The notes under the pieces were generated by a model, which saw only the letters and a list, made by a program, of their open reading frames with translations, had not been told where the DNA came from and made no database searches. 64,000 bases of DNA, taken from NCBI RefSeq assembly GCF_036365525.1, contig NW_027140453.1:124001-188000 (forward strand). The letters are read 5' to 3'. Both the position numbers and the translations under genes were made by a program. Numbering within the stretch: position 1 is the stretch's first letter; every line of letters begins with the position of its first letter. This stretch comes from Heterodontus francisci (taxonomy: Eukaryota). Positions 8,471-54,700 of this stretch are shown here, one piece after another.

Positions 8471-9315
8471 AGTTTTGTTGCCTGATGTCTTCTGCTCTGC
8501 AAAGAGTTTAAGTACAAGACCTGCTGCTTTGGAGATCAGTGAGAGACACCATTTGAACCAGGACTGAGAGCTCAGCAAGTTTAACCAGTGCCCCCAGAAC
8601 TAGGCAGTGGACATATTCAACATGGGCATGGGGAAACACAGAATCAGAGAATTTGACAGCACCATGCAAGGCCATTCGGCCCATTGTGTCTGGACAGGCT
8701 CTTTGAATGATCAATGCAGTACAATCCCAATCTCCCATTCTTTCCCAAAGCCCTTCAAATTGTTCCCCTTGCGTTATTTATCCCATTCCCTTTCAGTGTC
8801 CCTCTGACCATTCCCACCCAACGTTCATTTCTGCAGTGCTCTGAAAATGAATCGTTAATTCCTGGAGATTGCTGGTGGCTTTCAATCCCAGTGTCAATGG
8901 AGTGGGAATGTAGCTATGACGTTGTTATTGGTCACAGTAACCATGGGATGCGAGGGCTGTGGGAAAGAGAGGATCTAATTGTTCCCTTCCTGGAACCAAA
9001 GATAGTTTTGTATCTTATCCCAGGAAGACCTGTCCGTTATCAGATAGTCAAATGGCAGAGAGAGAGAGAGAGAGAACAGAAGACACAGTGAAATATAATA
9101 TTCAAACAAGCTGATCCCACATCACAGTTCAGCGACAGAAGAACTCCCCAAACCCCAGTCTGAAATCAGAGTGAGTGAGGGCACCATTAACTCAGGTCTG
9201 AGTGTGGCTTGTATCTCAGTGGGAGGGTCTTGTTCCTGAGATTCAGGAGGACGTGGGGTCCAGTTCAACTCCCGAGACTGGACATCATCTATAAGGACCC
9301 CCCCAGTGTCCGTAC
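8471..9315. repeat. Higher-order repeat unique block, copy 3
   Basis: Direct near-identity to 325-1167. Confidence 0.95.
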
Positions 9316-12149: not shown

Positions 12150-12298
12150 AGGTGTGTTGCCTGATGTCCTGTGCTCTGCAATGAGTTTAAATACAAGTCC
12201 TGCTGCTTTGGAGATCAGTGAGAGACACAATTTGAACCAGGACTGAGAGCTCAGCAATTTTAACCAGTGCCCCCAGAACTAGGCAGTGGACATATTCA
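12150..12298. repeat. Higher-order repeat unique block, 5' fragment (truncated copy)
   Basis: Matches the first ~150 bp of the block, then jumps back into 33-mers at CATATTCA|GCACTCCC. Confidence 0.93.
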
Positions 12299-15200: not shown

Positions 15201-17755
15201 GCACTCCCTCAGTACTGACCCTCTGACAGTGCAGCACTCCCTCAGTACTGACCCTCCCACAGTACAGCACTCCCTCAGTACTGACCCTCTGACAGTGCAG
15301 CACTCCCTCAGTACTGACCCTTTGTCAGTACATCATTCCCTCAGTACTGACCCTCCCACAGGACAGGACTACTTCAGTACTGACCCTCTGACAGTGCATC
15401 ACTCCCTCAGTACTGACCCTCTGACAGTGAGGCACTCCCTCAGTACTGACCCTCTGACAGTGAGGCACTCCCTCAGTACTGACACATCGACAGTGAGGCA
15501 CTCCCTCAGTACTGACACTCCGACAGTGCATCACACCCTCAGTACTGACCGTCCGACAGTGCATCACTCCCTCAGTACTGACCCTCTGACAGTGCATCAC
15601 TCCCTCAGTACTGACCCTCTGACAGTGCATCACTCCCTCAGTACTGACCCTCTGACAGTGCAGCACTCCCTCAGTACTGACCCTCTGACAGTGCGGCGCT
15701 CTCTCAGCACTGACACTCCGACAGTGCGGCACTCCCTCAGTACCGACCCTCTGACAGTGCATCACTCCCTCAGTACTGACCCTCTGACAGTGCATCACTT
15801 CCTCAGTACAGACCCTCAGACAGTGAGGCACACCCTCAGTACTGACCCTCCGAAAGTGTGGCGCACCCTCAATACTGACCCTCCGACAGTGCAGCCCTCC
15901 CTCAGTACTGACCCTCTTACAGTGCGGCACTCCCTCAGTACTGACCCTCTTACAGTGCATCACTCCCTCAGTACTGGCCCTCCGACAGTGCATCACTCCC
16001 TCAGTACAGACCCTCTGACAGTGCATCACTCAATCAGTACAGACCCTCTGACAGTGCTGCACTCCCTCAGTACTGACCCTCTGACAGTGCAGCACTTCCT
16101 CAGTACTGACCCTCTGACAGTGCATCACTCCCTCAGTACTGACCCTCTGACAGTGCATCACTCCCTCAGTGCTGACCCTCTGACAGTGCATCACTCCCTC
16201 AGTACTGACCCTCTGACAGTGCATCACTCCCTCAGTACTGACCCTCCCACAGTGCAGCACTCCCTCAGTACTGACCCTCTGACAGTGCATCACTCCCTCA
16301 GTACTGACCCTCCCACAGTACAGCACTCTCTCAGTACTGACCCTCCGACAGTCCGGCACTCCCTCAGTACTGACCCTCTGACAGTGCATCACTCCCTCAG
16401 TACTGACCCTCAGTGCATCACTCCCTCAGTACTGACCCTCTGACAGTGCAGCACTCCCTCAGTACTGACCCTCTGACAGTGAGGCACTCCCTCAGTATTG
16501 ACACTCCGACAGTGTGGCGCACCCTCAATACTGACCCTCCGACAGTGCAGCACTCCCTCAGTACTGACACATCGACAGTGCAGCACTCCCTCAGTACTGA
16601 CACTCCGACAGTGCATCACACCCTCAGTACTGACCGTCCGACAGTGCATCACTCCCTCAGTACTGACCCTCTGACAGTGCATCACTCCCTCAGTACTGAC
16701 CCTCTGACAGTGCATCACTCCCTCAGTACTGACCCTCTGACAGTGCAGCACTCCCTCAGTACTGACCCTCTGACAGTGCGGCGCTCTCTCAGTACTGACA
16801 CTCCGACAGTGCGGCACTCCCTCAGTACCGACCCTCTGACAGTGCATCACTCCCTCAGTACTGACCCTCAGACAGTGCATCACTCCCTCAGTACTGACCG
16901 TCTGACAGTGCAGCACTCCCTCAGTAGTGACCCTTTGACAGTGCAGCACTCCCTCAGTACTGACCCTCTGAAAGTGCAGCACTCGCTCAGCACTGACCCT
17001 TTGACAGTGCAGCACTCCCTCAGTACTGACCCTCCGACAGTGCAGCACTCCCTCAGTCCTGACCCTCTGACAGTGCATCACTCCCTCATTACTGAGTGTC
17101 TGACAGTGCAGCACTCCCTCAGTACTGACCCTCTGACAGAGCATCACTCCCTCAGTGCTGACCCTCTCAGTACAGAACTCCCACAGTACTGACACTCCGA
17201 TAGTGCGGTGCTCCCTCAGTCCTCGCCCTCGGAATGTGCATCACTCCCTCAGTACTGACCCTCTGACAGTGAGGCACTCCCTCAGTAATGACCCTCCGAC
17301 AGTGTGGCGCACACTCAATACTGACCCTCCGACAGTGCAGCACTCCCTCAGTACTGACCCTCTGAGTGCGGCACTCCCTCAGTACTGACACTCTCACAGT
17401 ACAGCACTACCTCAGTACTGACCCTCTGACAGTGCAGCACTCTCTCAGTACTGACCCTCTGACAGTGCAGCACTACCTCAGTACTGACCCTCTGACAGTG
17501 CAGCACTCCCTCTGTACTGACCCTCTGACAGTGCATCATTCCCTCAGTACTGACCCTCACACAGTACAGCACTACCTCAGTACGGACTCTCTGACAGTGC
17601 ATCACTCCTTCAGTACTGACCCTTCAACAGTCCGGCACTCCCTCAGTACTGACACTCCGATAAGGCGGTGCTCCCTCAGTACTGACCCTCGGAATGTGCA
17701 GCACTCCCTCAGTACTGACCCTCCGACAGTGCAGTCCACCCTCAGTAGTGACAGT

Positions 17756-18602
17756 AGGTGTGTTGCCTGATGTCCTGTGCTCTGCAATGAGTTTAAATAC
17801 AAGACCTGCTGCTTTGGAGGTCAGTGAGAGACACAATTTGAACCAGGACTGAGAGCTCAGCAAGTTTAACCAGTGCCCCCAGAACTAGGCAGTGGACATA
17901 TTCAACATAGGCATGGGGAAACACAGAATCGGAGAATTTGACAGCACCGTGCAAGGCCATTCGGCCCATTGTGTCTGTACTGGCTCTTTGAATGATCAAT
18001 GCAGTACAATCCCAATCTCCCATTCTTTCCCAAAACCCTGCAAATTGTTCCCCTTGCGTTATTTATCCCATTCCCTTTCAGTGTCCCTCTGACCATTCCC
18101 ACCCAACGTTCATTTCCGCAGTGCTCTGAAAATGAATCGTTAATTCCTGGAGATTGCTGGTGGCTTTCAATCCCAGTGTGAATGGAGTGGGAATGTAGCT
18201 ATGATGTTGTTATTGGTCACAGTAACCATGGGATGCGAGGGCTGTGGGAAAGAGAGGATCTAATTGTTCCCTTCCTGGAACCAAAGACAGTTTTGTATCT
18301 TATCCCAGGAAGACCTGTCCGTTATCAGATAGTCAAATGGCAGAGAGAGAGAGAGAGAGAGAACAGAAGACACAGTGAAATATAATATTCAAACAAGCTG
18401 ATCCCACATCACAGTTCAGCTACAGAAGAACTCCCCAAACCCCAGTCTGAAATCAGAGTGAGTGAGGGCACCATTAACTCAGGTCTGAGTGTGGCTTGTA
18501 TCTCAGTGGGAGGGTCTTGTTCCTGTGATTCAGGAGGACCTGGGGTCCAGTTCAACTCCTGAGACTGGACATCATCTATAAGGACCCCCCCAGTGTCCGT
18601 AC
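17756..18602. repeat. Higher-order repeat unique block, copy 4
   Basis: Direct near-identity to 325-1167. Confidence 0.95.
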
Positions 18603-20349
18603 GACAGTGCGGCACTCCCTCAGTACAGACACTCTGACAGTGCAGCACTCCCTCAGTACTGACCCGCTGACAGTGCATCACTCCCTCAGTACTGACCCTC
18701 TGATAGTGCAGCACTCCCTCAGTATTGACCCTCTGACAGTGCGGCGCACCCTCAATACTGACCCTCTGACAGTGCAGCACTCCCTCAGTACTGACCCTCT
18801 GACAGTGCATCACTCCCTCAGTATTGACCCTCTGACAGTGCGGCGCACCCTCAATACTGACCCTCTGACAGTGCAGCACTCCCTCAGTACTGACCCTCTG
18901 ACAGTGCATCACTCCCTCAGTATTGACCCTCTGACAGTGCGGCGCACCCTCAATACTGACCCTCTGACAGTGCAGCACTACCTCAGTACTGACCCTCTGA
19001 CAGTGCATCATTCCCTCAGTACTGACCCTCCCACAGTACAGCACTCCCTCAGTACTGACCCTCCCACAGTACAGCACTCCCTCAGTACTGACCCTCTGAC
19101 AGTGCATCACTCCCTCAATACTGACCCTCCCACAGTCCAGCACTACTTCAGTACTGACCCTCTGACAATGCAGCACTCCCTCAGTACTGACCCTCCAACA
19201 GTACAGCACTCCCTCAGTAATGACCCTCTGACAGTGCAGCACTCCCTCAGTACTGACCCTCTGACAGTGCATCACTCCCTCAGTACTGACCCTCTGACAG
19301 TGCATCACTCCTTCAGTACTGACCTTCCGATAGTTCGGAGCTCCCTCAGTAGTGACCCTCCAACAGTGCGGCACTCCCTCAGTAATGACCCTCTGACAGT
19401 GCAGCACTCCCTCAGTACTGACCCTCTGACAGTGCATCACTCCCTCAGTTCTGACCCTCTGACAGTGCAGTGCTCCCTCACAACTGACCCTCTGACAGTG
19501 TGGCACTCCTTCAGTACTGACCCTCTGACAGTGCATCACTCCCTCAGTACTGACCCTCTGACAGTGCAGCACTCCCTCAGTACTGAACCTCTGACAGTGC
19601 AGCACTCCCTCAGTACTGACCCGCTGACAGTGCAGCACTCCCTCAGTACTGACCCTCTGACAGTGCAGCACTCCCTCAGTACTGACCCTCTGACAGTGCA
19701 TCACTCCCTCAGTACTGACCCTCTGACAGTGCAGCACTACGTCAGTACTGACCCTCTGAAAGTGCATCATTCCCTCAGTCCTGACCCTCCCACAGTACAG
19801 CACTCCCTCAGTACTGACCATCTGACAGTGCAGCACTCCCTCAATACTGACCCTCCCACAGTCCAGCACTACTTCAGTACTGACCCTCTGACACTGCAGC
19901 ACTCCCTCAGTACTGACCCTCCAACAGTACAGCACTCCCTCAGTAATGACCCTCTGACAGTGCAGCACTCCCTCAGTACTGACCCTCTGACAGTGCATCA
20001 CTCCCTCAGTACTGACCCTCTGACAGTGCAGCACTCCCTCAGTACTGACCCTCTGACAGTGCATCACTCCCTCAGTACTGACCCTCTGACAGTGCATCAC
20101 TCCCTCAGTACTGACCTTCCGATAGTTCGGAGCTCCCTCAGTAGTGACCCTCCGACAGTGCGGCACTCCCTCAGTTCTGACCCTCTGACAGTGCAGTGCT
20201 CCCTCACAACTGACCCTCTGACAGTGTGGCACTCCTTCAGTACTGACCCTCCGACAGTGCGGTGCTCCCTCAGTACTGACCCTCCGACAGTGTGGCCCTC
20301 CCTCAGTACTGACCCTCCGACAGTGCGGTCCACCCTCAGTCCTGACAGT

Positions 20350-21196
20350 AGGTTTGTTGCCTGATGTCTACTGCTCTGCAAAGAGTTTAAGTACAAGACC
20401 TGCTGCTTTGGTGGTGAGTGAGAGACACCATTTGAACCAGGACTGAGAGCTCAGCAAGTTTAACCAGTGCCCCCATAACTAGGCAGTGGACATATTCAAC
20501 ATAGGCATGGGGAAACACAGAATCGGAGAATTTGACAGCACCGTGCAAGGCCATTCGGCCCATTGTGTCTGTACAGGCTCTTTGAATGATCAATACAGTA
20601 CAATCCCAATCTCCCATTCTTTCCCAAAACCCTGCAAATTGTTCCCCTTGCGTTATTTATCCCATTCCCTTTCAGTGTCCCTCTGACCATTCCCACCCAA
20701 CGTTCATTTCCGCAGTGCTCTGAAAATGAATCGTTAATTCCTGGAGATTGCTGGTGGCTTTCAATCCCAGTGTCAATGGAGTGGGAATGTAGCTATGACG
20801 TTGTTATTGGTCACAGTTACCATGGGATGCGAGGGCTGTGGGAAAGAGAGGATCTAATTGTTCCCTTCCTGGAACCAAAGATAGTTTTGTATCTTATCCC
20901 AGGAAGACCTGTCCGTTATCAGATAGTCAAATGGCAGAGAGAGAGAGAGAGAGAACAAAAGACACAGTGAAATATAATATTCAAACAAGCTGATCCCACA
21001 TCACAGTTCAGCGACAGAAGAACTCCCCAAACCCCAGTCTGAAATCAGAGTGAGTGAGGGCACCATTAACTCAGGTCTGAGTGTGGCTTGTATCTCAGTG
21101 GGAGGGTCTTGTTCCTGTGATTCAGGAGGACGTGGGGTCCAGTTCAACTCCCGAGACTGGGCATCATCTATAAGGACCCCCCCCCAGTGTCCGTAC
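20350..21196. repeat. Higher-order repeat unique block, copy 5
   Basis: Direct near-identity to 325-1167. Confidence 0.95.
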
Positions 21197-22902
21197 GACA
21201 GTGCGGCACACCCTCAGTACTGACCCTCTGACAGTGCAGCACTCCCTCAGTACTGACCCGCTGACAGTGCATCACTCCCTCAGTACTGACCCTCTGATAG
21301 TGCAGCACTCCCTCAGTATTGACCCTCTGACAGTGCGGCGCACCCTCAATACTGACCCTCTGACAGTGCAGCACTCCCTCAGTACTGACCCTCTGACAGT
21401 GCAGCACTACCTCAGTACTGACCCTCTGACAGTGCATCACTCCCTCAATACTGACCCTCCCACAGTCCAGCACTACTTCAGTACTGACCCTCTGACAGTG
21501 CAGCACTCCCTCAGTACTGACCCTCTGACAGTGCATCACTCCCTCAGTACTGACCCTCCCACAGTACAGCACTCCCTCAGTACTGACCCTCTGACAGTGC
21601 ATCACTCCCTCAATACTGACCCTCCCACAGTCCAGCACTACTTCAGTACTGACCCTCTGACAGTGCAGCACTCCCTCAGTACTGACACTCTGACAGTGCA
21701 TCACTCCCTCAGTACTGACCTTCCGACAGTTCGGAGCTCCCTCAGTAGTGACCCTCCGACAGTGCGGCACTCCCTCAGTTCTGACCCTCTGACAGTGCAG
21801 TGCTCCCTCACAACTGACCCTCTGACAGTGTGGCACTCCTTCAGTACTGACCCTCCGACAGTGCGGTGCTCCCTCAGTACTGACCCTCCGACAGTGCGGC
21901 ACACCCTCAGTACTGACCCTCTGACAGTGCATCACTCCCTCAGTACTGACCCGCTGACAGTGCATCACTCCCTTAGTACTGACCCTCTGACAGTGCGCAA
22001 TCCCTCAGTACTGACCCACTGACAGTGCATCACTCCCTCAATAATGACCCTCTGACAGTGCAGCACTCCCTCAGTACTGAGCCTCTGACAGTGCAGCACT
22101 ACCTCAGTACTGACCCTCTGACAGTGCATCACTCAATCAGTACAGACCCTCTGACAGTGCAGCACTCCCTCAGTACTGACCCTCTGACAGTGCGCAATCC
22201 CTCAGTACTGACCCTCTGACAGTGCATCACTCCCTCAATAATGACCCTCTGACAGTGCAGCACTCCCTCAGTACTGAGCCTCTGACAGTGCAGCACTACC
22301 TCAGTACTGACCCTCTGACAGTGCATCACTCAATCAGTACAGACCCTCTGACAGTGCAGCACTCCCTCAGTACTGACCCTCTGACAGTGCATCACTCAAT
22401 CAGTACAGACCCTCTGACAGTGCAGCACTCCCTCAGTACTGACCCTCTGACAGTGCATCACTCCCTCAGTACTGACGCTCTGACAGTGTGGCACTCTCTC
22501 AGTACTGACCCTCCGACAGTCCGGCACTCCCTTAGTACTGACCCTCTGACAGTGCAGCACTCCCTCAGTACTGACCCTCTGACAGTGCAGCACTCCCTCA
22601 GTACTGACCCTCTGACAGTGCATCACTCTGACAGTGCGGCACTCCCTCAGTACTGACACTCCGATAGGGCGGGGCTCCCTCAGTACTGTCCCTCGAAATG
22701 TGCATCACTCCCTCAGTACTGACCCACTGACAGTACAGCAGTCCTTCAGTACTGACCCTCCGATGGTGCAGCACTCCCTCAGTACTGACCCTCTGACAGT
22801 GCGGCACACCCTCAGTACTGACCCTCCGACAGTGTGGCGCACCCTCAATACTGACCCTCCGACAGTGCAGCCCTCCCTCAGTACTGACCCTCTTACAGTG
22901 CA

Positions 22903-23013
22903 GCTTGTATCTCAGTGGGAGGGTCTTGTTCCTGTGATTCAGGAGGACGTGGGGTCCAGTTCAACTCCCGAGACTGGGCATCATCTATAAGGACCCCCCC
23001 CCAGTGTCCGTAC
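22903..23013. repeat. Higher-order repeat unique block, 3' fragment (SINE-head part only)
   Basis: Matches the last ~110 bp of copy 5, including its longer poly-C run. Confidence 0.93.
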
Positions 23014-26000
23014 GACAGTGCGGCACACCCTCAGTACTGACCCTCTGACAGTGCAGCACTCCCTCAGTACTGACCCGCTGACAGTGCATCACTCCCTCAG
23101 TACTGACCCTCTGATAGTGCAGCACTCCCTCAGTATTGACCCTCTGACAGTGCGGCGCACCCTCAATACTGACCCTCTGACAGTGCAGCACTCCCTCAGT
23201 ACTGACCCTCTGACAGTGCAGCACTCCCTCAGTACTGACCCTCTGACAGTGCATCACTCTGACAGTGCGGCACTCCCTCAGTACTGACCCTCCCACAGTC
23301 CAGCACTACTTCAGTACTGACCCTCTGACAGTGCAGCACTCCCTCAGTACTGACCCTCTGACATTGCATCACTCCCTCAGTACTGACCCTCCCACAGTAC
23401 AGCACTCCCTCAGTACTGACCCTCTGACAGTGCATCACTCCCTCAATACTGACCCTCCCACAGTCCAGCACTACTTCAGTACTGACCCTCTGACAGTGCA
23501 GCACTCCCTCAGTACTGACACTCTGACAGTGCATCACTCCCTCAGTACTGACCTTCCGACAGTTCGGAGCTCCCTCAGTAGTGACCCTCCGACAGTGCGG
23601 CACTCCCTCAGTTCTGACCCTCTGACAGTGCAGTGCTCCCTCACAACTGACCCTCTGACAGTGTGGCACTCCTTCAGTACTGACCCTCCGACAGTGCGGT
23701 GCTCCCTCAGTACTGACCCTCCGACAGTGCGGCACACCCTCAGTACTGACCCTCTGACAGTGCATCACTCCCTCAGTACTGACCCGCTGACAGTGCATCA
23801 CTCCCTTAGTACTGACCCTCTGACAGTGCGCAATCCCTCAGTACTGACCCACTGACAGTGCATCACTCCCTCAATAATGACCCTCTGACAGTGCAGCACT
23901 CCCTCAGTACTGAGCCTCTGACAGTGCAGCACTACCTCAGTACTGACCCTCTGACAGTGCATCACTCAATCAGTACAGACCCTCTGACAGTGCAGCACTC
24001 CCTCAGTACTGACCCTCTGACAGTGCGCAATCCCTCAGTACTGACCCTCTGACAGTGCATCACTCCCTCAATAATGACCCTCTGACAGTGCAGCACTCCC
24101 TCAGTACTGAGCCTCTGACAGTGCAGCACTACCTCAGTACTGACCCTCTGACAGTGCATCACTCAATCAGTACAGACCCTCTGACAGTGCAGCACTCCCT
24201 CAGTACTGACCCTCTGACAGTGCATCACTCAATCAGTACAGACCCTCTGACAGTGCAGCACTCCCTCAGTACTGACCCTCTGACAGTGCATCACTCCCTC
24301 AGTACTGACGCTCTGACAGTGTGGCACTCTCTCAGTACTGACCCTCCGACAGTCCGGCACTCCCTTAGTACTGACCCTCTGACAGTGCATCACTCCCTCA
24401 GTACTGACCCTCTGACAGTGCATCACTCCCTCAGTGCTGACCCTCTGACAGTGCGGCACTCCCTCAGTACTGACACTCCGATAGGGCGGGGCTCCCTCAG
24501 TACTGTCCCTCGAAATGTGCATCACTCCCTCAGTACTGACCCACTGACAGTACAGCAGTCCTTCAGTACTGACCCTCCGATGGTGCAGCACTCCCTCAGT
24601 ACTGACCCTCTGACAGTGCGGCACACCCTCAGTACTGACCCTCCGACAGTGTGGCGCACCCTCAATACTGACCCTCCGACAGTGCAGCCCTCCCTCAGTA
24701 CTGACCCTCTTACAGTGCAGCACTCCCTCAGTACTGACCCTCTTACAGTGCATCACTCCCTCAGTACTGGCCCTCCGACAGTGCATCACTCAATCAGTAC
24801 AGACCCTCTGACAGTGCAGCACTCCCTCAGTACTGACCCTCTGACAGTGCAGCACTTCCTCAGTACTGACCCTCTGACAGTGCAGCACTCCCTCAGTACT
24901 GACCCTCCGACAGTGCAGCACTCCCTCAGTACTGACCCTCTGACAGTGCATCACTCCCTCAGTGCTGACCCTCTGACAGTGCATCACTCCCTCAGTACTG
25001 ACCCTCTGACAGTGCATCACTCCCTCAGTACTGACCCTCTGACAGTGCATCACTCCCTCAGTACTGACCCTCCCACAGTACAGCACTCTCTCAGTACTGA
25101 CCCTCCGACAGTCCGGCACTCCCTCAGTACTGACCCTCTGACAGTGCATCACTCCCTCAGTACTGACCCTCTGACAGTGCATCACTCCCTCAGTGCTGAC
25201 CCTCTGACAGTGCATCACTCCCTCAGTACTGACCCTCTGACAGTGCATCACTCCCTCAGTACTGAGTGTCTGACAGTGCATCACTCCCTCAGTACTGACC
25301 CTCTGACATGGCATCATTCCCTCAATAATGACCCTCTGACATTGCAGCACTCCCTCAGTACTGAGCGTCTGACAGTGCAGCACTCCCTCAGTACTGACCC
25401 TCCGACAGTGCAGCACTCCCTCAGTACTGACCCTCTGACAGTGCATCACTCCCTCAGTGCTGACCCTCTGACAGTGCATCACTCCCTCAGTACTGACCCT
25501 CCCACAGTACAGCACTCTCTCAGTACTGACCCTCCGACAGTCCGGCACTCCCTCAGTACTGACCCTCTGACAGTGCATCACTCCCTCAGTACTGAGCGTC
25601 TGACAGTGCATCATTCCCTCAGTACTGACCCTCCCACAGTACAGCACTCCCTCAGTGCTGACCCTCTGACAGTGCATCACTCCCTCAGTACTGACCCTCT
25701 GACAGTGCATCACTCCCTCAGTACTGACCCTCTGACAGTGCAGCACTCCCTCAGTACTGACCCTCTGACAGTGCATCACTCCCTCAGTACTGAGCGTCTG
25801 ACAGTGCAGCACTCCCTCAGTATTGACCCTCCGACAGTACAGCACTCCCTCAGTACTGACCCTCTGACATGGCATCATTCCCTCAATAATGACCCTCTGA
25901 CAGTGCAGCACTCCCTCAGTACTGACCCTCTGACAGTGCATCACTCCCTCAGTACTGACCCTCTGACATGGCATCATTCCCTCAATAATGACCCTCTGAC

Positions 26001-28931
26001 AGTGCAGCACTCCCTCAGTACTGACCCTCAGACAGTGCAGCACTCCCTCAGTATTGACCCTCCGACAGTACAGCACTCCCTCAGTACTGACCCTCTGACA
26101 TGGCATCATTCCCTCAATAATGACCCTCTGACAGTGCATCACTCCCTCAGTACTGACCCTCTGACAGTGCATCACTCCCTCAGTACTGACCCTCTGACAG
26201 TGCATCACTCCCTCAGTAATGACCCTCTGACAGTGCATCACTCCCTCAGTACAGACCCTCTGACAGTGCATCACTCCCTCAGTACTGACCCTCTGACAGT
26301 GCATCACTCCCTCAGTACTGACCCTCCCACAGTACAGCACTCCCTCAGTACTGACCCTCTGACAGTGCATCACTCCCTCAGTACTGACCCTCTGACAGTG
26401 CATCACTCCTTCAGTGCTGACCCTCTGACAGTGCATCACTCCCTCAGTGCTGACCCTCTGACAGTGCAGCACTCCCTCAGTACTGACCCTCTGACAGTGC
26501 AGCACTCCCTCAGTACTGACCCTCTGACAGTGCAGCACTCCCTCAGTACTGACCCTCTGACAGTGCATCACTCCCTCAGTACTGACCCTCCCACAGTACA
26601 GCACTCCCTCAGTACTGACCGTCTGACAGTGCGGCACTCCCTCAGTACTGACCCTCCCACAGTACAGCACTCCCTCAGTACTGACCCTCCCACAGTACAG
26701 CACTACCTCAGTACTGACCCTCCGACAGTGCATCACTCCCTCAGTACTGACCCTCTGACAGTGCATCACTCCCTCAGTACTGACCCTCTGACAGTGCATC
26801 ACTCACTCAGTACTGACCCTCTGACAGTACAGCACTCCCTCAGTACTGACCCTCTGACAGTGCATCACTCCCTCAGTACTGACCCTCTGACAGTGCAGCA
26901 CTCCCTCAGTACTGACCCTCTGACAGTGCAGCACTCCCTCAGTACTGACCCTCTGACAGTGCAGCACTACTTCAGTACTGACCCTTTGACAGTGCAGCAC
27001 TCCCTCAGTACTGCCCCTCCAACAGTGCGGCACTCCCTCAGTACTGACACTCCGATAGAGCGGTGCTCCCTCTGTACTGACCCTCGGAATGTGCATCACA
27101 CCCTCACTACTGACCCTCTGACAGTGCAGCGCTCCCTCAATACTGACCCTCAGACAGTGAGGCACACCATCAGTACTGACCCTCCGACAGTGTGGCGCAC
27201 CCTCAATACTGACCCTCCGACAGTGCAGCCCTCCCTCAGTACTGACCCTCTGACAGTGCATCACTCCCTCAGTACTGACCCTCTGACAGTGCAGCACTCC
27301 CTCAGTACTGACCCTCTGACAGTGCATCACTCCCTCAGTTCTGACCCTCCCACAGTACAGCACTACCTCAGTACTGACCCTCTGACAGTGCATCACTCCC
27401 TCAGTTCTGACCCTCTGACAGTGCAGCACTCCCTCAGTACTGACCCTCTGACAGTGCAGCACTCCCTCAGTTCTGACCCTCCCACAGTACAGCACTACCT
27501 CAGTACTGACCCTCTGACAGTGTGGCGCACTCTCAGTACTGACCCTCCGTCATTGCGGCACTCCCTCAGTACTGACTCTCTGACAGTGCAGCACTCCCTC
27601 AGTACAGACCCTCTGACAGTGCAGCACTCCCTCAGTACTGACCCTCTGACAGTGCATCACTCAATCAGTACAGACCCTCTGACAGTGCAGCACTCCCTCA
27701 GTACTGGCCCTCTGACAGTGCATCACTCCCTCAGTACTGACGCTCTGACAGTGTGGCACTCTCTCAGTACTGACCCTCTGACAGTGCATCACTCCCTCAG
27801 TACTGACCCTCCCACAGTACAGCACTCCCTCAGTACTGACCCTCTGACAGTGCATCACTCCCTCAGTACTGACCCTCTGACAGTGCATCACTCCCTCAGT
27901 ACTGACCCTCTGACAGTGCATCACTCTCTCAGTACTGACCCTCTGACAGTGCATCACTCCCTCAGTGCTGACCCTCTGATACTGCATCACTCCCTCAGTA
28001 CTGACCCTCTGACAGTGCGTCACTCCCTCAGTACTGACCCTCTGACAGTGCATCACTCCCTCAGTGCTGACCCTCTGATACTGCATCACTCCCTCAGTAC
28101 TGACCCTCTGACAGTGCGTCACTCCCTCAGTACTGACCCTCTGACAGTGCGTCACTCCCTCAGTACTGACCCTCTGACAGTGCATCACTCCCTCAATACT
28201 GACCGTCTGACAGGGCAGCACTCCCTCAGTACTGACCCTTTGACAGTGCAGCACTCCCTCAGTACTGACCCTCCCACAGTGCAGCACTCCCTCAATACTG
28301 ACCCTCTGACAGTGCATCACTCCCTCAGTACTGACACACTGACATTACAGCAGTCCCTCAGTACTGCCCCTACAATGGTGCGGCACTCCCTCAGTGCTGC
28401 CGCTCCGATAGGGCAGTGCTCCCTCAGTACTGACCCTCGGAATGTGCATCACTCCCTCAGTACTGACCCTCCCACAGTACAGCAGTCCTTCAGTACTGAC
28501 CCTTCCGATGGTGCAGCACTCCCTCAGTTCTGACCCTCCAACTGCACGGTTCTCCCTCAGTACTGACCCTCCGACAATGCGGCGCTCCCTCCTCACTGAC
28601 CCTCAGGCAGTGCATCACTCCCTCAGTACTGACCCTCGGGCAGTGTTTCACTCCCTCAATACTGACCCTCTGACAGTGCAGCTCTCCCTCAGTACTGACT
28701 TTCCGACAATGCAGCACTCCCTCAGTACTGACCCTCGGGCATTGCATCGCTCCCCTCAATACTGACCCTCAGGCAGTGTTTCACTCCCTCAGTACTGACT
28801 CCTCCTTCTCCATTCAAGTGGTACTGAGGCCAATGAGCTCATGCCTGAATGAAATCAGCCAGTTCCCTCTCGACTTTTCCTTTGTGGCTCAGTATCGATT
28901 GCGATCGGATTATCCAAACATCACCTGTCAG

Positions 28932-35817: not shown

Positions 35818-36460
35818 ATTCCGACAAGTGTCTGGCCAGCAGCCCAGCAGTACGAGTGGGGGAGGACAGTTCACCTTCCTGATGGTGTTAACTCCTCAAC
35901 AATGCACCGGTGCCAATATCAATCAGAATGTACAATTCAGACCCTCTGATTCAGGAAGACCGGTTATTGGCGGCGGTGTGAATTACTTCCTCAACCGTCG
36001 ATCAGTAAACTACATCGCAGTTTACCCCAACACAGGAAGTCGCTGCTCAGAGAATAAACTGTTACACTTCACTCAGGAGGATCAACGCTATGGGCAGACT
36101 GACAGTGCAGCTCGGCTGCTTCAGAATAGCATCAATAACCAGGGGCTGCAGGTTGGCTGTGTCATTCTCTACACCACCTACACCCCCTGCATCCAGAGCT
36201 GCTTCAGTGGCAATGAGAATTGTGACATCCTCGGCCCCTTAGGCAGCGCACCCTTTAGTACCACCTGGGACAACACAAACATTCATAAGTATTTTGTCTT
36301 CAGCAAATTATACCCACTCGACAATAATGCAGATAAGATCCCCACAGTCCAAGGCAAGCTGGGACAAGTTACCCAGGCACGCTTTCACATCAGAAAGTGT
36401 GATGGGGCCAACAACCAAATACAGTGTCAGGACTGCAGCAGCCCTAGGTACTGTATCTAG
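35818..36460 (+). CDS. Secreted AID/APOBEC-like deaminase (SNAD-type), catalytic exon; full protein 246 aa
   Basis: Acceptor TTTGTGTTTGTCCCTTTCAG ends at 35817 and joins in frame (CG+A = Arg). Motifs QFTFLMVLTPQQC, IAVYP, RCSENKLL, CVILYTTYTPCIQSC, KYFVFSKLYPLD and a C-terminal RKC..C..C..C follow the SNAD deaminase layout. TAG at 36458-36460. Confidence 0.88.
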
Positions 36461-41190: not shown

Positions 41191-41340
41191 TTCTGGCTAA
41201 CTGGCTGTAAAGTGTTTTCAGATAAAATGGTGTTGCAAAGGTCACCAATAGGGATACAAAGGGGCTCGATGGTTTGCTGAGCTTTCACGATGATGCTGCT
41301 CACAGCTGGGTGTTTTAGGGGCAGGTTGGGAGAGTGAGGA

Positions 41341-41379
41341 TGTTTTTGTCTCACTCTGCCGCAGGATTGTATCGCTGTG
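41341..41379 (-). promoter_or_regulatory. 23-bp-spacer recombination signal sequence
   Basis: CACAGCG + 23 nt + ACAAAAACA immediately 3' of YYCAASM. Confidence 0.92.
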
Positions 41380-42005
41380 CCCATACTCGCTGCACAGTAG
41401 TAGGTCGCAGTGTCTGTCGGCTGGGGGTCGCCCAGCTGTAGGGAGAATCGGTTGCTTGCAGAGTCGTGTTGCACAGTGAACCGCTTCCCAAAGCCTGGCC
41501 CACAGCTGCCGTGCTCATTGCACATCCACTCTACTGCCTTCCCCTCCTGCCTCTACCAGTGCATGGTGTAGCTGCCCATGCTGGCTCCCTCCAAGCTGCA
41601 GCCGAGGGCGAGGGGCTTCCCCGGTCGAATAGAAGCCGCGGCTGGAGTCTGGACCACAGTGGGTGCAGACTGAACCCCTGGAACACATTCCATAAAAGAA
41701 AGTAATTCAGACTCATGGAAGGAAAATGGTAGCATAAATCATAAAATCTAGCAGAATAGAAAGAGGCCGTTCTGCCCATCGTATCTGCGCTGGCTGTTTG
41801 AAAGAGCTATCGAGTTAGTCTCACTTGCCCCTGCTCCTACCCCATTGCCCTCCCAATTTCCCCGCTCCAAGCCCTGATCCAATAGCCATTTGGGAGATTA
41901 CTATTGAATCTACTTCCTCCTGCTGAAGGGATAGCACTTACAAAAAATCCAATGTCCAAGCAATAAGATGACCAAGATAGAGACGTTTTTAGCTAAGAGT
42001 GCCAT
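41380..42005 (-). pseudogene. T-cell receptor V segment (delta/alpha-type, TRDV2-like) with intact leader and one in-frame stop
   Basis: Leader exon 42005-41942 (MALLAKNVSILVILLLGHWIF, GTAAGT donor, phase 1). V exon 41677-41380 reads VQSAPTVVQTP..LGCSLEGASMGSYTMHW*RQEGKAVEWMCNEHGSCGPGFGKRF..FSLQLGDPQPTDTATYYCAAS, with TAG at 41553-41555 in place of the Tyr of WYRQ. Confidence 0.9.
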
Positions 42006-42274
42006 CGTCCTTCTCAGAAGCAGAGAGGCAGCCCTTACTGAGCAACAAGCCAGCGCCTGGTAAATGGAAATGCCACCGGTTGTGATGAAGAGAGTGGAAC
42101 GATTGGCCGCCCATCCTGTACCTCGACCACGCCTGTCAGCAGAGTGAACAAATGAGGAGCACTTCCCTCAGCAACATTGCTGTTATTTATGCAGATTGCT
42201 GCAAGCCCCTGAGCCCGACTTTCACTCTTCCCTTCCCAACATTCCCACCTTTCCTTCCATGGAATATTGCCTTA

Positions 42275-43750
42275 TTTTTTGATTGGTCAGGAACGTGCTG
42301 ACCATGTGAAAGATAGGTAGGAAAACAAATTGTGAGGAGGGCACAAAGAGTCTGCAGAGGGTTATAGATAGGTTAAGTAAGTGGGCAAAAATTGCCAGAT
42401 GGAGTATACTGTGGGCAAATGTGAGCTTGCCCACTTTGGCAGGAAGAATGGGAATTCAGAATATTATTTAAATAGAGAGAGACTGCAGGTCTCTACAGGA
42501 CAGAGGGATCTGGGGTCCTGGTACGTGAATCACAAAAAGTCAGCATGTAGGTACAGCGAGTGATTAGGGCGGCAAATGAAATGTTGTTGTTTATTGCAAG
42601 GGGAATAGAATATAAAAGTAGGGAAGTGTTGCTACAGCTGTACAGGGCCTTAGTTAGACCACATCTGGAGTACTGAGTAAAGTATTGGTCTACGTAATTA
42701 AGAAAGGACATAAATGCATTGGAATTAGTTCAGAGAAGCTTCACTCGGCTGATACCTGGAATGAAGGGGTTGTCTTATGAGGAAATGTTGAGCAGTTTGA
42801 GCCGATGCCCACTGGAGTTTAGAAGAATGAGAGGTGATCTTATCGAAACATGTCATATTTTAAGGGGGATTGACAGCTTGGAAGCCGAGAGGATGTTTCC
42901 CCCTGGTGGGCGAATCTAGAACTAGGCAGCATAATTTCAAAATAAGTGATTGTCAGATGGAGTATAATGTGGGGAAAATTGAGGTTGTTCACTTTGGTTG
43001 CAAGAATATAACTTTTTACAAGGCGTGAATCTTCTCGATGTTGCTGTTCAGAGAGGCTTGGGTGTCCCCCTACATGAAACACAGTAACTTCACATGCAGG
43101 TGCAGCAAGAAATTAGCAAGGCAAATGGCCTGTTGGCCTTTATTGCAAGTGGGATTGGAGTACAGGAATAAGGAAGTCTTGTTACAATTGGCCAGTTCTT
43201 TGGTAAGATCACATCTGCGTTACTGTACGCAGTTTTGGTCTCCACATCCGAGGAAGGCTACACTTGCCTCGGTGGCAGTACAACGAAGGCTCACTCCATT
43301 GTTTCCTGGGATGAGAGGTTTGTCCTAATATGAGAGGGCCTGTAGTCTATGGAGTTTAGAAGAATGAAAGGTGATCTCAGTGAAACATACAAGATTCTGA
43401 AGGTGCTTGACTGGGTAGACACTGAGAAGTTGTTTCCCCTGGCTGGGGAATCTAGTACAGCCGAAGGATGAGGGGCCAAGCATTTGGGACTGAGATAAGG
43501 AGAGGTTTCTTCACTCAAAGGGTGGTAAATCTTTGGAATTCCCTACCCCCGGGGGTGGTGGATGCTCCATCATTGAATATATTTCAGGTTGTGATAGACA
43601 GATATGTGGTCACTGATGGACTGCAGGGATATGGGGAGCGGGTGGAAAGTGGGGTTCAGTTGGAGGATCAGTCATGATGGTATTGAATGACAGAGCAGGA
43701 TTGAGGGGCCGAATGGTCTACTCCTGCTCCGATTTCTCATGTTATTCTAA
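42275..43750 (+). mobile_element. Tandem CR1 LINE RT fragments
   Basis: LVRPHLEY, QFWSP, RRMRGDLIET and FFTQRVVNLWNSLP motifs occur twice. Confidence 0.88.
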
Positions 43751-44079
43751 AATCTAGTCATTTGATTCATGATGATTCCATTAACACAATCTAAAAACCC
43801 GTTAACTTTAACTGCCGGCTCTTTACATCAGTCTTCACCCTTCAATGATCTGACCAGAATAATTCTCTGCTGGCCTCTTTCAGTGTCTTCCCTGCAATTG
43901 GATTCATTTCTGGCCCCATCAACGTACATAACACAACATTTGCCGAAATTTAATGCCAGTTGCCATTGTGTGGCCTAATCCCCTGCCACAGGTAAATCAC
44001 TTTGGATTCCACAGGACCCCTCTACTGTCTTAACCCGTGCAAAGATTTTAGTGACATCTGCAAACATTCTTTTATTATT

Positions 44080-44480
44080 TCATTGGATGTGGGAGTCACT
44101 GGCCAGGCCAGAAATTATTGCCCATCCCTAATCGCCCTTGAGAAGGTGGTGGTGAGCTGCCTTCTTGAGCCACTGCAGTCCATGTGAGGTGGGCACACCC
44201 ACAGTGCTGTTAGGAAGGGAGTTCCAGGATTTTGACCCAGCGACAGTGAAGGAACGGCCGATACAGTTCCAAGTCAGGATGGTGTGTGGCTTGGAGGGGA
44301 ACTTGCAGGTGGTGGTGTTCCCATGCGTTTGCTGCACTTGTCCTTCTAGATTGAGGTCGCGGGTTTGGAAGGTGCTGTCGAAGGAGCCTTGGTGCGTTAC
44401 TGCAGTGCATTGTGTAGCTGGTACACACTGTTGCCACTGTGCATCTGTGGCGGAGGGAGTGACTATTTAAGGTGGTGTTT
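44080..44480 (-). mobile_element. Non-LTR retrotransposon 3' end (same family as 47110-48220)
   Basis: Close similarity to 47115-47510; GSKSWNSLP motif on the minus strand. Confidence 0.8.
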
Positions 44481-44489
44481 GTTTAGTTA

Positions 44490-44599
44490 GATTCCCCCAG
44501 CTGCTGTGGTGGGATTTGAACTCTTGTGCTCTGGATCATTCGGTCGAAGCCTCAGGATTACTAGTCCCAGTAACATAACAGCAATGCTACCGTACCCCC
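44490..44599 (-). mobile_element. tRNA-derived SINE head
   Basis: The minus strand reads GGGGTACGGTAGC...GGACTAGTAATCC...GAGTTCAAATCCCACC (B-box). Confidence 0.65.
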
Positions 44600-44633
44600 A
44601 GAGACTGGGGTAAGGTGTATTACACAATTCCCA

Positions 44634-44672
44634 AGTTTTTGCTGTGTTTCCTTGCATTCTAGTTACACTGTG
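44634..44672 (-). promoter_or_regulatory. 23-bp-spacer recombination signal sequence
   Basis: CACAGTG + 23 nt + GCAAAAACT directly after YYCGAHKDT. Confidence 0.9.
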
Positions 44673-44960
44673 TGTATCCTTGTGAGCCCCGCAGTAGTAA
44701 GTGCTGTTGTCTTGGACTCGGGAGCTTTTCCAGGACAGAGTGAAAGTGTTGGCCTGAGTCTTGTGCTGGGTTTCAATCCTTTTCCTGTAGTTAGATGCAG
44801 AAAGTACACTCTATCTGATCCATTCCAGGCAGTCACCAATCTGCAAGTACCAGTCCAAACAACACTCAGTCATGTTGCCCTGCCCAATGCTTCTGTGGAA
44901 CGTGGGTTCCTCAACGGGAACCAGAGCATTGACCACTGGGGACTGGAGAACCATCTAACA
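44673..44960 (-). pseudogene. Second, more decayed antigen-receptor V segment
   Basis: Manual minus-strand translation VLQSPVVNALVPVEEPTFHRSIGQGNMTECCLDWYLQIGDCLEWIR*SVLSASNYRKRIETQHKTQANTFTLSWKSSRVQDNSTYYCGAHKD shows WYxQ, FTL and DxxTYYC. The first Cys is lost and a stop lies at 44811-44813. Confidence 0.85.
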
Positions 44961-45659
44961 TCTAACAAGATTCTTCACACAGTATGGCAGATCAATGGGG
45001 AGAGAACGACAGTGGGCCACAGGGATGGACAGAGGCAAAAGCAGAAGAGAGGGAATAAGAAGGAGACAAATTATTCTTCTAGAGTCACGCTGCTACATTC
45101 ACACTTATATTTGCTCCACAGGTTAAGCCCAATTATAAATCAGATTTATTACATTGATAAAACTATAAATGCACCAAACTCGGAAGGATGAATACAAACC
45201 AATTCAGTCTGCATCTGAGAAAAAAGGAAATTGGTAATGTTTAATGATGATACTCTGTCAGAATAATCCTAACTGCTGTTCACATCAAGGAACAGTAAAT
45301 TATTTCAATTTGGTTGATGAGGAGATTATGTATAGCAATGCATAAAGTAACTATTACGAACATTAATTTCATCAACAATGGGACCAAATGGGGATAGTGG
45401 TGTTTCCTGTCTTAAAACTGGAAAGCAGGAATATGGAAAGCAGATCTCAAACTACTTTGAGATTCTTTTCAGAGGTGGAGGCTCGTTATAAGCAGTGTGA
45501 TCAAACCGCCCCTGCTGCTGTGGAAACTGCAGATAGGTCAAATAACCAGTGTCACTGGCGTTGTATTCCTCGCAGAGCACCCTCTGACCACATCATACCA
45601 ACAAAACCTTAGAGGGGAACAGAGCAGGACAGGCAGAGGCCATCCCGGGGAACCCCACA

Positions 45660-51737: not shown

Positions 51738-54700
51738 ATGTGGACTCGGCTGATCATTCTGGGTTACCTGAGTGAGTAACTTTCATTCTCGACAAAGTTC
51801 ACCCCCAGTACAACTAGAACAAGCTGTGTTTATTCAAACCGTTACATAGAATAATCTCCCAAGATGTTGCACAGAAATCTGATTGAAGAAATGTCTGACA
51901 CACGGCAGGGAAGGAGATGATTGGAGGGCTGACTGTTAGTTTAAAAGAGCAGACGGAGGTGGAGAGGCAGAAAGGTTTAGGAGGCTAGATATCTTGAAGC
52001 CACATCAGACACTGCTGGAGGAAAGGGAGTGGAGGGAATTTATACAGGAGGCTTGGGTCAGAGAAACAGAGAGTTGGTGAAGATTACAGAAATGAGGTGG
52101 GAGAGGGCGGGAGAGGTCATGAAAGAATTTGAACAGGAAGACGGAAGTTGTACATCAAAGGCGTTTGCAGCTGTGAACCAATGTAGGTCAGAGAGCACAG
52201 GGGTGATGTGTGACTTAAACTTTCTGCAAGATAACATACAACAGCAGTGTGTTGGAGGAGACCTGACTTCTGGAAAGTGGAAGCTGGGAGGCTGGCCAGG
52301 TGTGGATTAGAAGATTTGATTCTCTAGAAGGTCGAGGGTTTTTGGTAGAGGATTGGCTGAGGCAAAATCAGTGATGGTGGATATTACGGAGGTTGTAATT
52401 GGATGTCCTTGTGATGAGGAGGCTACAGTGAAGGAAGCTGGGCACAGTCGGAAGCTGATGAGAAATTGGAGAGGGACAAGATAGATTCTCGGGGTACCCT
52501 AGAGGTAACAGTGCTGGAGTGGGTAGGGAAGACACTGCAGGAGATTCTCTGGCTGAGACGAGACTGGGTTGAGTGGAAATAGGCCAGAGCAGTTCCACCC
52601 AGCTGGACATGGAAGGAGAGGTGTTGGCAGAGGGTAATGTGGTGAATTGTGTCAAAGACTGCCGACAATTCGAGAAGGATGATCAGAAACAGTATTCCTG
52701 ACTTGGCTCTTGCAGCTTCACCGCTGCTCAAACCCTTTACCAGTTCTTTGGTAACTCTAGACTTGACTATTCCAAAGATCTCCTGGCTGATCTCTCACAT
52801 TCCACCTTCTGTACATTTTGGTCATCCAGTATGATACTGCCCAAGTCCCGTTCACCTTTCATCTCCGTGCTCACTGACCTACACTGGCTCCCGGTTCAGC
52901 AAGGCCTGGATTTCAATATTCTCACAATCGTTTCCAGATCCTTCTATCACCTAGCCGTTCCCTACTTCTGAAATCATCTCCAGCCCCACAACCCTTGGAG
53001 ATCTCTGCGCTCCTCTAATTCAGGCCTCTTGAATATTCCCGATTCGAATCCCTTCCACCATTGGCAGCTGTGCCTTCACCTGCCGAGGCTTAACGCTATG
53101 GAATTCTAGCCCTCAACTTCTCTGTCTCTCCTCCTCTCTTTCATCCTTTCAGACACTCCTTAAAACCTACCTCTTTGACAGAGCATTTGGCCACCTGCCC
53201 GACCAGCTGCTTCTGTGGATCGGTGTCAGTTCGGGATGGTAACACACCGATGAAGTGCTTTGGGACATTTTATTACATCAAAGGCAGTACATAAACGCAG
53301 GTTGTTGTTGGTTTTGAGACTACACGTTCCCTCTGCAGGACCCACCAGTCACACTGGGTCGCTTGTGCTCCACCTGGCAGTTCTCGCTCCTCCTCCACTT
53401 TACATCTTTCCTACTGGGATGAAGTGAAGCTGAGATATTTACTGCTTTCTGTTACCTGAGAGCTGGTGGTTAATCTAGAATAGGGAGGACTGTCTGTGAG
53501 CAGTGAGTTAGAGGGGGAGGCTGAGCTGGGAGACAGATGGAAATCCAGTTTAGAGAAGGAGGACATTTCCCAGCTTTAATCTGGGGGGTTTTGACCAGGG
53601 CAGAGGGTGAAACTGAGATTATTGGTATTTCGGGAGGGTACAAGGCGCTGTGTAACATTAACTGTACTTTATATTAACATTAAACATCTTTCTGTCACTC
53701 AGTCACAGACTCCACACTCACTGACCCGTGTGTAAATCACACAGTCCTGGACCAGCCCTGGAGGAGCATCGATTGTGATGTCACTGTGGGCTCCGGTCAG
53801 GAGAAGTGTGATGATAATCTTGCTCAAGGATGGTACAGATTTAAAAGGTAATGTAAAGGAACAAATTCTGGGTAAATCAGTTAATGAGGGAGGAGTAATG
53901 GATTTCCCCCAGTTTCTGGCACTATCTGTTGTTACCAGTCTCTCTAACAGTTAATATTTACCATCAGTTCAGGGACTGACTCTGTGATTATTGTTTCAGT
54001 TCTGGTGGATGGAAGATTCCGGACACTGTTGTCCCAGATTTTCACTGCTCCACACGTGCCACAGGCTGGTTACAGGGTAATTTCCGTCTTAAAAATATCA
54101 GATTTACATTCACTGTCCAGCACTGTTCACGTGGGTTACCTTCTTCAATATTCATAAACTCTCATTTCAGGTTCCCATCCCAGTGTGGGACAGGGGGAAG
54201 TAACGAGGACAGTTTGTTTTAACAAGGCTGGAAATCGCTGTCACTGGACCCAGGAAATAAAGATCAAAAACTGCAGCAGTTATTTTGTTTATGAGTTGAA
54301 GCCTCCACCCGACTGTAACGCTGTTTATTGTACAGGTAGATTGCTGTTTGTATATGGTGCAGATGGGTGATTCTGGGATGTCCCGTGTCTCCCATGGGAA
54401 TGAGACAGTTTACTCACTGCCCTCCTTTTTGTAAGGGACACAGTGAATATAGGATCTGTAAAACAGAGTGAACTCTTCACTAAAACTCTAGGGAACTGAA
54501 CCAGACGCTCGCTGTCTGGAGAGAGGGCTGGCATGTCTGGGTAGTATTCTGTCAGGTCTGCAATTGAGGAGATTCAGGTTTTCTGGTGAGTGTCAGACAC
54601 AGCAGCAGGATCCTGACAGACTCTATGTGAAGGGCAAACACTCTCACCTCACCTCTTGAGTTCAGCTCTTTTGTCCATGTTTGAACCACACTGTAATGAG

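What the first reader, a model, noticed from the sequence alone, without database searches (positions are those of the whole stretch)
41341..44960. Two RSS-flanked TCR-like V segments stranded between a secreted deaminase and a GP2-like gene, with no D/J/C in view
Seen: two V exons, 3.3 kb apart and in the same orientation, each end in YYC followed by a good heptamer-23-nonamer RSS. Both have an equally short FR2 (W*RQEGKAVEWM / WYLQIGDCLEWI). No J or C was recognised in the 41 kb on their 3' side. Known: a 23-RSS together with WYxQ fits TCR V genes. Inference: this is either an orphon V mini-cluster or the edge of a TCR alpha/delta-type (or undescribed rearranging) locus into which other immune genes are interleaved.
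Basis: partly seen in the sequence, partly recalled or inferred. Interest (0 to 1): 0.7.

Follow-up and report, generated by a model that had tools for sequence, protein, structure and literature searches.

The report
Dead edge of amplified shark TCR-beta
The two gene segments are real but broken T-cell-receptor beta V segments at the cut-off end of a locus that this shark assembly repeats about twenty times, which likely means this shark builds its beta chains from many separate gene units rather than from one or two.

Summary
Observation confirmed, reading corrected. Both V exons and their 23-bp RSSs are real, but both are pseudogenes (V1: one stop; V2: no Cys23, internal stop). They are neither an orphon nor TCR alpha/delta: they are the last two V segments of a TCR-beta (TRB) array. 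The assembly holds 21 V1 copies (20 open), 21 open near-identical TRB constant exons and 40 TRB D segments in 23 blocks on 6-7 scaffolds. A gap-free sister unit reads V2-V1-deaminase-V(n)-D-J-D-J-C on one strand; in the window copy everything beyond the deaminase is replaced by satellite DNA to the scaffold end. One public-run contig joins a V1-family segment to a TRB D and J (out of frame). The constant regions fall into 15 groups, so at least 8 units per haploid genome even if both haplotypes are present. Bamboo shark has 2 units and bichir 5 (PMC10322711 supplement). V1 belongs to an old short-CDR2 lineage resembling salmonid TRBV6. The scan noted TRB multiplication and this V family before on other DNA of this genome; the full count and the deaminase lying inside the V-to-D interval are what this report adds.

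The parts
41380..41677 (-). V1 exon: short-CDR2 TRBV with a Cys-x5-Cys pair; pseudogene in this copy (stop in FR2)
   Evidence: acceptor at 41677 confirmed by spliced contigs in runs X1 and X2
41341..41379 (-). V1 23-RSS (CACAGCG - 23 - ACAAAAACA)
41942..42005 (-). V1 leader exon (64 nt, phase 1, GT donor)
   Evidence: loose ends of X1 and X2 contigs match it
44673..44961 (-). V2 exon: decayed V, distant relative of V1; no Cys23, internal stop
   Evidence: same stop in 11 of 11 other copies translated
44634..44672 (-). V2 23-RSS (CACAGTG - 23 - GCAAAAACT)
35818..36460 (+). SNAD1-family deaminase main exon (CSE...PCIQSC); signal-peptide exon not located; in sister units it lies between V1 and D
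1168..28804 (.). 33-bp satellite array, part of a block of about 70 kb where homology to sister units ends; only a few hundred bases long in sister units
53714..54367 (+). Uromodulin/GP2-type D8C module 1 (three exons)
   Evidence: at least 150 related exons in the genome
57226..57939 (+). Uromodulin/GP2-type D8C module 2 (under the Pfam cut-off)

Best explanation
The two segments are broken TCR-beta V genes at the truncated end of a TRB array that is present as about twenty V-D-J-C units in this assembly and likely as at least eight, possibly about twenty, per haploid genome. Shown: V, D, J and C parts, their RSSs, their copy numbers in the assembly, and one complete sister unit V2-V1-SNAD-V(n)-D-J-D-J-C. 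Inferred: the ancestral shark layout (two D-J-C blocks back to back, flanked by V arrays, as in bamboo shark) was multiplied by recent large segmental duplications and inversions, carrying SNAD and D8C genes along. The window copy likely lost its downstream V-D-J-C by a break in the 33-bp satellite that sister units carry as a short array at the same place, and V1 then likely decayed. Intact V1 copies are predicted to rearrange by ordinary RAG 12/23 joining, mostly by deletion to the next same-strand D, which would cut the SNAD gene out of that allele in those T cells. The window's own RSSs could only be used by inversion to a D about 296 kb away and would give non-productive joins.
For: 21 V1 copies on 7 scaffolds, only the window copy with a stop. 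Neighbouring V genes hit a catshark 'TCR beta chain-like' protein at 58% and alpha/beta TCR constructs first in PDB. 21 exons 58-59% identical to the catshark TRB constant domain, next-best class 33-37%; 21 of 21 open, 0-7 nt apart in 354, TM exon found for 20 of 21. 40 D segments by exact pattern, control 0; D has 12-RSS 5' and 23-RSS 3', J has FGxG. 388 V ends of one family with heptamer, control 0; the 100 listed are on C407 (79) and C761 (21). Sister unit C2233:20-104 kb is gap-free and all on one strand except SNAD. Window-to-sister homology is 91-96% from about 34.7 kb onwards and ends at the satellite. Run X2 contig: leader spliced to V1, V1 end joined to N bases, a D1 core and a J matching a genomic TRBJ at all but one base. 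Constant exons are spliced in 4 of 4 runs. The six constant regions on C407 differ by at least 0.88% and lie in both orientations; all 21 fall into 15 groups at 0.5%. Bamboo shark has the same back-to-back layout with 2 constant genes (PMC10322711 supplement 16).
Against: No DNA read depth was available, and all TRB scaffolds are unplaced, so haplotype duplication or misassembly inflates the count to an unknown degree: two V1 flanks on different scaffolds are 99.965% identical over 19.7 kb and two constant regions 0.00% different. The only V1-D-J join seen is one contig at depth 5.7, reads out of frame, and comes from a run of another organism code (20 differences in 352 nt of constant exon), so productive use of V1 is not shown. 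V1 does not group with the other TRBV families in trees, and its best non-self hits in the genome and in PDB are Ig V domains. No Eph or DBH-like anchor gene was found on the TRB scaffolds. The satellite break and the order 'truncation, then decay' are inferred from one copy.
Confidence: 0.85

Rival explanations
1. TRB identity holds, but the high copy number is largely an assembly artefact (uncollapsed haplotypes, false tandem duplication); the animal has 2-6 units as in bamboo shark, bichir or salmonids, and the window's truncation is a scaffold-end artefact.
For: Unplaced scaffolds; near-identical pairs across scaffolds (99.965% over 19.7 kb; 0.00-0.33% in four groups); scaffold end is long satellite.
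Against: 15 groups differ by more than 0.5% and most by 1.6-3.8%; two groups have three members; copies differ in structure (one or two D segments); six distinct copies on one scaffold, with no N in the 478 kb assembled except 132 in the window. Two haplotypes cannot hold 15 versions in fewer than 8 loci.
Confidence: 0.1
2. V1 is an Ig heavy- or light-chain-type V captured into the TRB locus, giving antibody-like beta chains, a parallel of the Ig-like V segments used by shark TCR delta.
For: Best non-self hits are IgH and IgL V at 40-43%; PDB sequence and fold hits are antibody V domains.
Against: V1 lies outside the IgH/TAILV clade (100/99 support) in both trees and groups (91/86) with short-CDR2 V domains of paddlefish, arapaima and eel, the last alternating with typical TRBV in one gene model. 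A catshark orthologue at 67% keeps both CDR2 cysteines. PDB is dominated by antibodies.
Confidence: 0.07
3. Orphon V mini-cluster or edge of a TCR alpha/delta locus.
For: No D, J or C in the 165 kb on the 3' side. A similar short-CDR2 V lineage occurs in TRA loci of bowfin.
Against: 79 further V ends, 10 TRB D segments and 6 TRB constant exons on the same scaffold; a V1-D-J join uses TRB D and J; the short-CDR2 TRA-type sequences form a separate branch.
Confidence: 0.02

Closest known systems
Bamboo shark (Chiloscyllium punctatum) TRB locus (PMC10322711, supplementary file 16 part 1 read)
   Same: V array, then C-J-D on one strand, a few V in both directions, D-J-C on the other strand, then an inverted V array: the same order as C407:204-520 kb.
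   Different: 2 constant genes, 2 D and 35 listed V in about 0.45 Mb, against 21 constant exons, 40 D and at least 388 V ends of one family over about 8.5 Mb of scaffolds here; most units here have two D-J blocks per constant gene.
Bichir TRB (same supplement) and salmonid TRB loci (PMC10464911, passages seen)
   Same: Several complete V(n)-D-J-C units in tandem or inverted; near-identical constant genes; the same open question of allelic exclusion.
   Different: 5 units in bichir and 3-4 in salmonids; here at least 8 and up to 21-23, with SNAD and D8C genes inside the units.
Salmonid TRBV6 (PMC10464911, passages seen)
   Same: Long CDR1 and very short CDR2; V1 groups with similar V domains of ray-finned fish.
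   Different: Single copy split by two introns in salmonids; here one exon, 21 copies and two cysteines flanking CDR2. No TRBV6 sequence was compared directly.
Shark Ig miniclusters (PMC12227049, PMC6795676, passages seen)
   Same: Many complete rearranging units per genome.
   Different: Ig clusters have one V each; these units have many V, so each is a small translocon.
Trypsinogen genes inside mammalian TRB
   Same: Unrelated secreted-protein genes lie between V and D and would be deleted on rearrangement.
   Different: Here the passengers are a SNAD1 deaminase and D8C genes; trypsinogens were not searched for.

Membership tests
TRB locus | V with 23-RSS, D with 5' 12-RSS and 3' 23-RSS, J with 12-RSS and FGxG | tested here: met
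TRB locus | TRB-type constant gene on the same scaffold | tested here: met
   6 exons on C407 at 58-59% to catshark TRB constant domain; open, with TM exon; spliced in 4 of 4 runs
TRB locus | This V family is joined to TRB D and J | tested here: met
   one contig in run X2, out of frame, other organism code
TRB locus | Synteny with MOXD2/DBH-like and EPHB6 | tested here: inconclusive
   0 of 17 Eph and 0 of 6 DBH-family matches lie on TRB scaffolds, which are unplaced
Functional V gene (V1, window copy) | Leader, splice sites, Cys23, Trp41, Cys104, open frame, RSS | tested here: not met
   all present except the open frame: stop in FR2; 20 of 21 copies have no stop
Functional V gene (V2) | Cys23 and open frame | tested here: not met
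   no Cys23 and a shared internal stop in the window and 11 of 11 other copies translated
TRA/TRD locus | Linked to TRD D-J-C and TRA J-C, within the IgH/TCR alpha-delta complex | tested here: not met
   IgH-, TAILV- and TRA/D-type V segments were found on C34, none among the V segments read on C407:1-478 kb
IgHV / TAILV / NAR-TCR V | Phylogenetic membership of those clades | tested here: not met
   V1 outside the IgH/TAILV (100/99) and NAR-TCR (100/100) clades; clade labels are mine, from motifs recalled and sequences
TRBV6-like lineage | Long CDR1, very short CDR2, clade with fish TRBV6 | tested here: inconclusive
   shape fits; groups 91/86 with unnamed fish V domains; no named TRBV6 sequence in the tree
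Orphon | Outside the main locus with no D-J-C in cis | tested here: not met
SNAD1 | Profile match; HxE...PCxxC zinc motif; signal peptide | tested here: inconclusive
   PF18744 E=4e-13; motif reads CSE...PCIQSC in the window and 3 of 3 sister copies translated, not HxE as described in PMC11004436; signal exon not located

The most novel reading that the evidence does not exclude
This shark carries about twenty functional TCR-beta V-D-J-C units per haploid genome, an antibody-cluster-like organisation of a TCR locus far beyond any described, in which units rearrange largely on their own, exclusion must work across some forty targets, and an AID/APOBEC-like secreted deaminase gene sits in the V-to-D interval of several units and is deleted when V1 is used.
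Probability: 0.35. Interest if true: 0.75.

Novelty: new variant of a known kind. Interest (0 to 1): 0.5.

Why it matters
The two segments themselves are ordinary dead V genes. The locus is the point. A review describes cartilaginous-fish TCR genes as translocons (PMC6795676), and the multi-unit TRB loci that I could read about have 2-5 units. Eight to twenty units with near-identical constant genes would make allelic exclusion at TCR-beta, left open even for four salmonid loci (PMC10464911), directly testable: unit-specific J variants would let single-cell reads say how many units rearrange per T cell and whether V segments cross unit borders. It would also show that multi-cluster organisation in sharks is not confined to Ig genes. 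I recall 1990s horn-shark papers reporting several TCR-beta loci; they were not readable here, so the multiplicity itself may be long known and only its scale and layout new.

Tried and rejected
TRA/D, orphon and Ig-captured readings: rejected as above. PDB sequence search and Foldseek of the V1 model (pLDDT 90.9) gave antibody V domains; treated as uninformative because the bank is dominated by antibodies. Word-indexed homologue searches for V1 found only NAR-TCR-type proteins at 33-37% or nothing; the profile library found the catshark orthologue. The Atlas gave no answer. Run search: no RNA holder listed on record; X1, X3, X4 are guessed RNA, so contig depth was not used as expression or copy number. 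The 224-228 aa open frame through V1's RSS in most copies was considered as a non-rearranging gene and set aside: the catshark orthologue's tail is unrelated and the copies are too recent to be independent. Anchor searches (Eph, DBH-like) did not place the scaffolds; 16 sampled 10-kb stretches of C779 and C1317 outside the V arrays gave mainly repeats, and that output was partly cut. Tree rows: 50; for, 14 rows were dropped (redundant or long branches) and 9 added; no clade test was run. In one search two constant regions show about 23% mismatch to the rest, probably non-homologous upstream sequence forced into the alignment; not used as divergence. Literature: 10 searches listed no paper describing the horn-shark TRB genomic layout; Rast and Litman 1994 (PMC44789; title seen in a reference list) was not held; subscription papers and unsearched supplements could bear on novelty.

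Full report
Observation. The window is G000:C407:124001-188000 of a 6.0-Gb assembly. Proteins 87-98% identical to a neighbouring V gene carry the source label Heterodontus francisci, so this is likely a horn shark. An RSS scan of both strands found exactly two sites, both 23-spacer and on the - strand, at 41379 and 44672; chance gave a mean of 0.013 and never 2 in 300 simulations. V1 (41677-41380) has a leader exon at 42005-41942, Cys23, Trp41 and Cys104 but a stop in FR2. V2 (about 44961-44673) lacks Cys23 and has an internal stop. A SNAD1-family exon lies 3' and D8C modules lie 5'. The first 29 kb are a 33-bp satellite, and the 124 kb before the window are mostly satellite with no V, D, J or C.

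The locus is TCR-beta. V1 has 21 copies at 89-100% on seven scaffolds; only the window copy has a stop. V2 has at least 40 copies (40 of 43 candidates scored), and 11 of 11 translated share its stop and lack Cys23, so it likely died before the amplification. Around other V1 copies lie V genes ending CAAS or CAWS with 23-RSSs; one has a catshark 'TCR beta chain-like' protein as best named hit (58%) and alpha/beta TCR constructs as top PDB hits. The catshark constant domain finds 21 exons at 58-59% on six of the same scaffolds and nothing else above 37%. Upstream of them are FGxG J segments and D segments GGGACA(G/A)... with a 12-RSS 5' and a 23-RSS 3'. An exact pattern finds 40 such D segments, control 0, in 23 blocks, two of which run off scaffold ends. 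One V family alone has 388 ends with heptamer, control 0 (only the first 100 places are listed).

Why the pair looks stranded. The sister unit C2233:20-104 kb, fetched without gaps, reads V2, V1, SNAD (opposite strand), seven recognisable V segments plus three unassigned RSSs, D, four J, D, ten J, C, all on one strand. The window matches this unit and the one at C407:770-810 kb at 91-96% from about 34.7 kb onwards; homology ends where the sisters have a short 33-bp array followed by more V genes, whereas the window has about 70 kb of that satellite and then another satellite to the scaffold end. I infer a break in the shared satellite that removed the downstream V-D-J-C. On the 5' side the array resumes at C407:204 kb. 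The nearest D on the opposite strand is at 461 kb, reachable only by inversion; the same-strand D segments at 396-406 kb lie upstream and could not give a chromosomal coding joint (inference from RSS orientation).

Use of the V1 family. Contigs in runs X1 and X2 splice the leader to V1 at 41677 and read the open codon at the window's stop. The X1 contig keeps the RSS (a germline transcript or precursor) and its seven listed differences match the copy at C407:1431 kb. The X2 contig joins the V1 end to four N bases, a D1 core and a J that matches a genomic TRBJ at all but one base; the join reads out of frame, and X2 is another organism code with 20 differences in 352 nt of constant exon. So rearrangement to TRB D and J is shown once; productive use is not. 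The constant exons are spliced in 4 of 4 runs.

How many units are real. All 21 constant exons are open and 0-7 nt apart; a TM exon was found for 20. Over about 8 kb, most pairs differ by 1.6-3.8%; at 0.5% they collapse to 15 groups, two with three members; the six on C407 differ by at least 0.88% and lie in both orientations. If both haplotypes are present, 15 versions still need at least 8 loci. Against a full count of 21-23: one pair of V1 flanks is 99.965% identical over 19.7 kb, one pair of constant regions is identical, scaffolds are unplaced, no anchor gene was found, and no read depth was available.

What kind of V is V1. Its best non-self hits are Ig V domains, which raised the possibility of an Ig V in TRB, something PMC12227049 calls disadvantageous. 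Two trees place it outside the IgH/TAILV clade and outside the two main TRBV clades. A catshark orthologue at 67% keeps the Cys-x5-Cys pair in the short CDR2. With it V1 groups (91/86, below the starred level) with short-CDR2 V domains of paddlefish, arapaima and eel, the last alternating with typical TRBV in one gene model; similar TRA-type sequences form a separate branch. This fits the TRBV6 description (long CDR1, 3-residue CDR2; PMC10464911) without proving membership. A disulfide between the two cysteines is plausible and untested.

Passenger genes. Six of 23 SNAD1 matches lie beside V1 copies on TRB scaffolds. By coordinates, in three of the five sister copies SNAD lies between V1 and a same-strand D within 55-140 kb, so a deletional V1-D join would excise it, as recalled for trypsinogen genes in mammals. 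Its motif is CSE, not HxE, and activity is untested. D8C exons form a family of at least 150 copies, also on scaffolds with no TRB hits.

Comparison and novelty. Bamboo shark TRB has the same back-to-back layout with 2 constant genes, and bichir has 5 tandem units (PMC10322711 supplement 16 part 1); salmonids have 3-4 (PMC10464911 passages); a review calls cartilaginous TCR genes translocons (PMC6795676 passages). Papers seen: passages of PMC6795676, PMC10464911, PMC1845163, PMC11754216, PMC2192082 (reference list), PMC12227049, PMC5931798, PMC11004436; passages, section 21 and one supplement part of PMC10322711. Early horn-shark reports of several TCR-beta loci are recalled only. Earlier notes of this scan reported TRB multiplication, this V family and D8C neighbours on other DNA; I had reached the TRB reading before opening them, and took the TRBV6 and bamboo shark/bichir leads from them.

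Verdict. The finding as written (orphon or alpha/delta edge) is not supported; the pair is the dead, truncated edge of an amplified TRB locus (confidence 0.85). New variant of a known kind, interest 0.5; 0.75 if about twenty working units per haploid genome are confirmed.

Noticed in passing
window 35818-36460 and sister copies (L003, L014, L015): SNAD1 has CSE in place of the HxE zinc motif in 4 of 4 copies translated; the window copy differs from its sisters almost only in the C-terminal third (86% overall), which may be gene conversion or selection.
   Followed up: partly
G000:C407:396-406 kb and 461-471 kb; most units: Two D-J blocks in tandem feed one constant gene; 6 of 23 blocks show only one D by pattern.
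   Followed up: partly
window 41052-41660 (-) and other V1 copies: In most V1 copies the frame stays open through the RSS for 224-228 codons, and run X1 holds a spliced, unrearranged V1 contig at depth 82.
   Followed up: partly
G000:C325, C1075, C220, C328: Over 100 uromodulin-type D8C exons in dense arrays on scaffolds without TRB hits.
   Followed up: no
G000:C46:15.0-16.9 Mb, C8:115-125 Mb, C23:54.5-56 Mb: Long arrays of V-C clusters, on C46 about 16 kb apart with 12-RSS V segments; likely Ig light-chain clusters.
   Followed up: no
G000:C13:120.3-120.4 Mb, C439, C650, C1995: V-set exons with no RSS recognised in the one fetched (L094), resembling multi-V membrane proteins such as P0022; C650 has a 1,993-codon open frame around one.
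   Followed up: no
G000:C1317:1.10-1.21 Mb (L115, L116); C407:10-80 kb: A 292-293-bp tandem array and a 30-bp satellite of about 70 kb inside or beside the TRB scaffolds.
   Followed up: no
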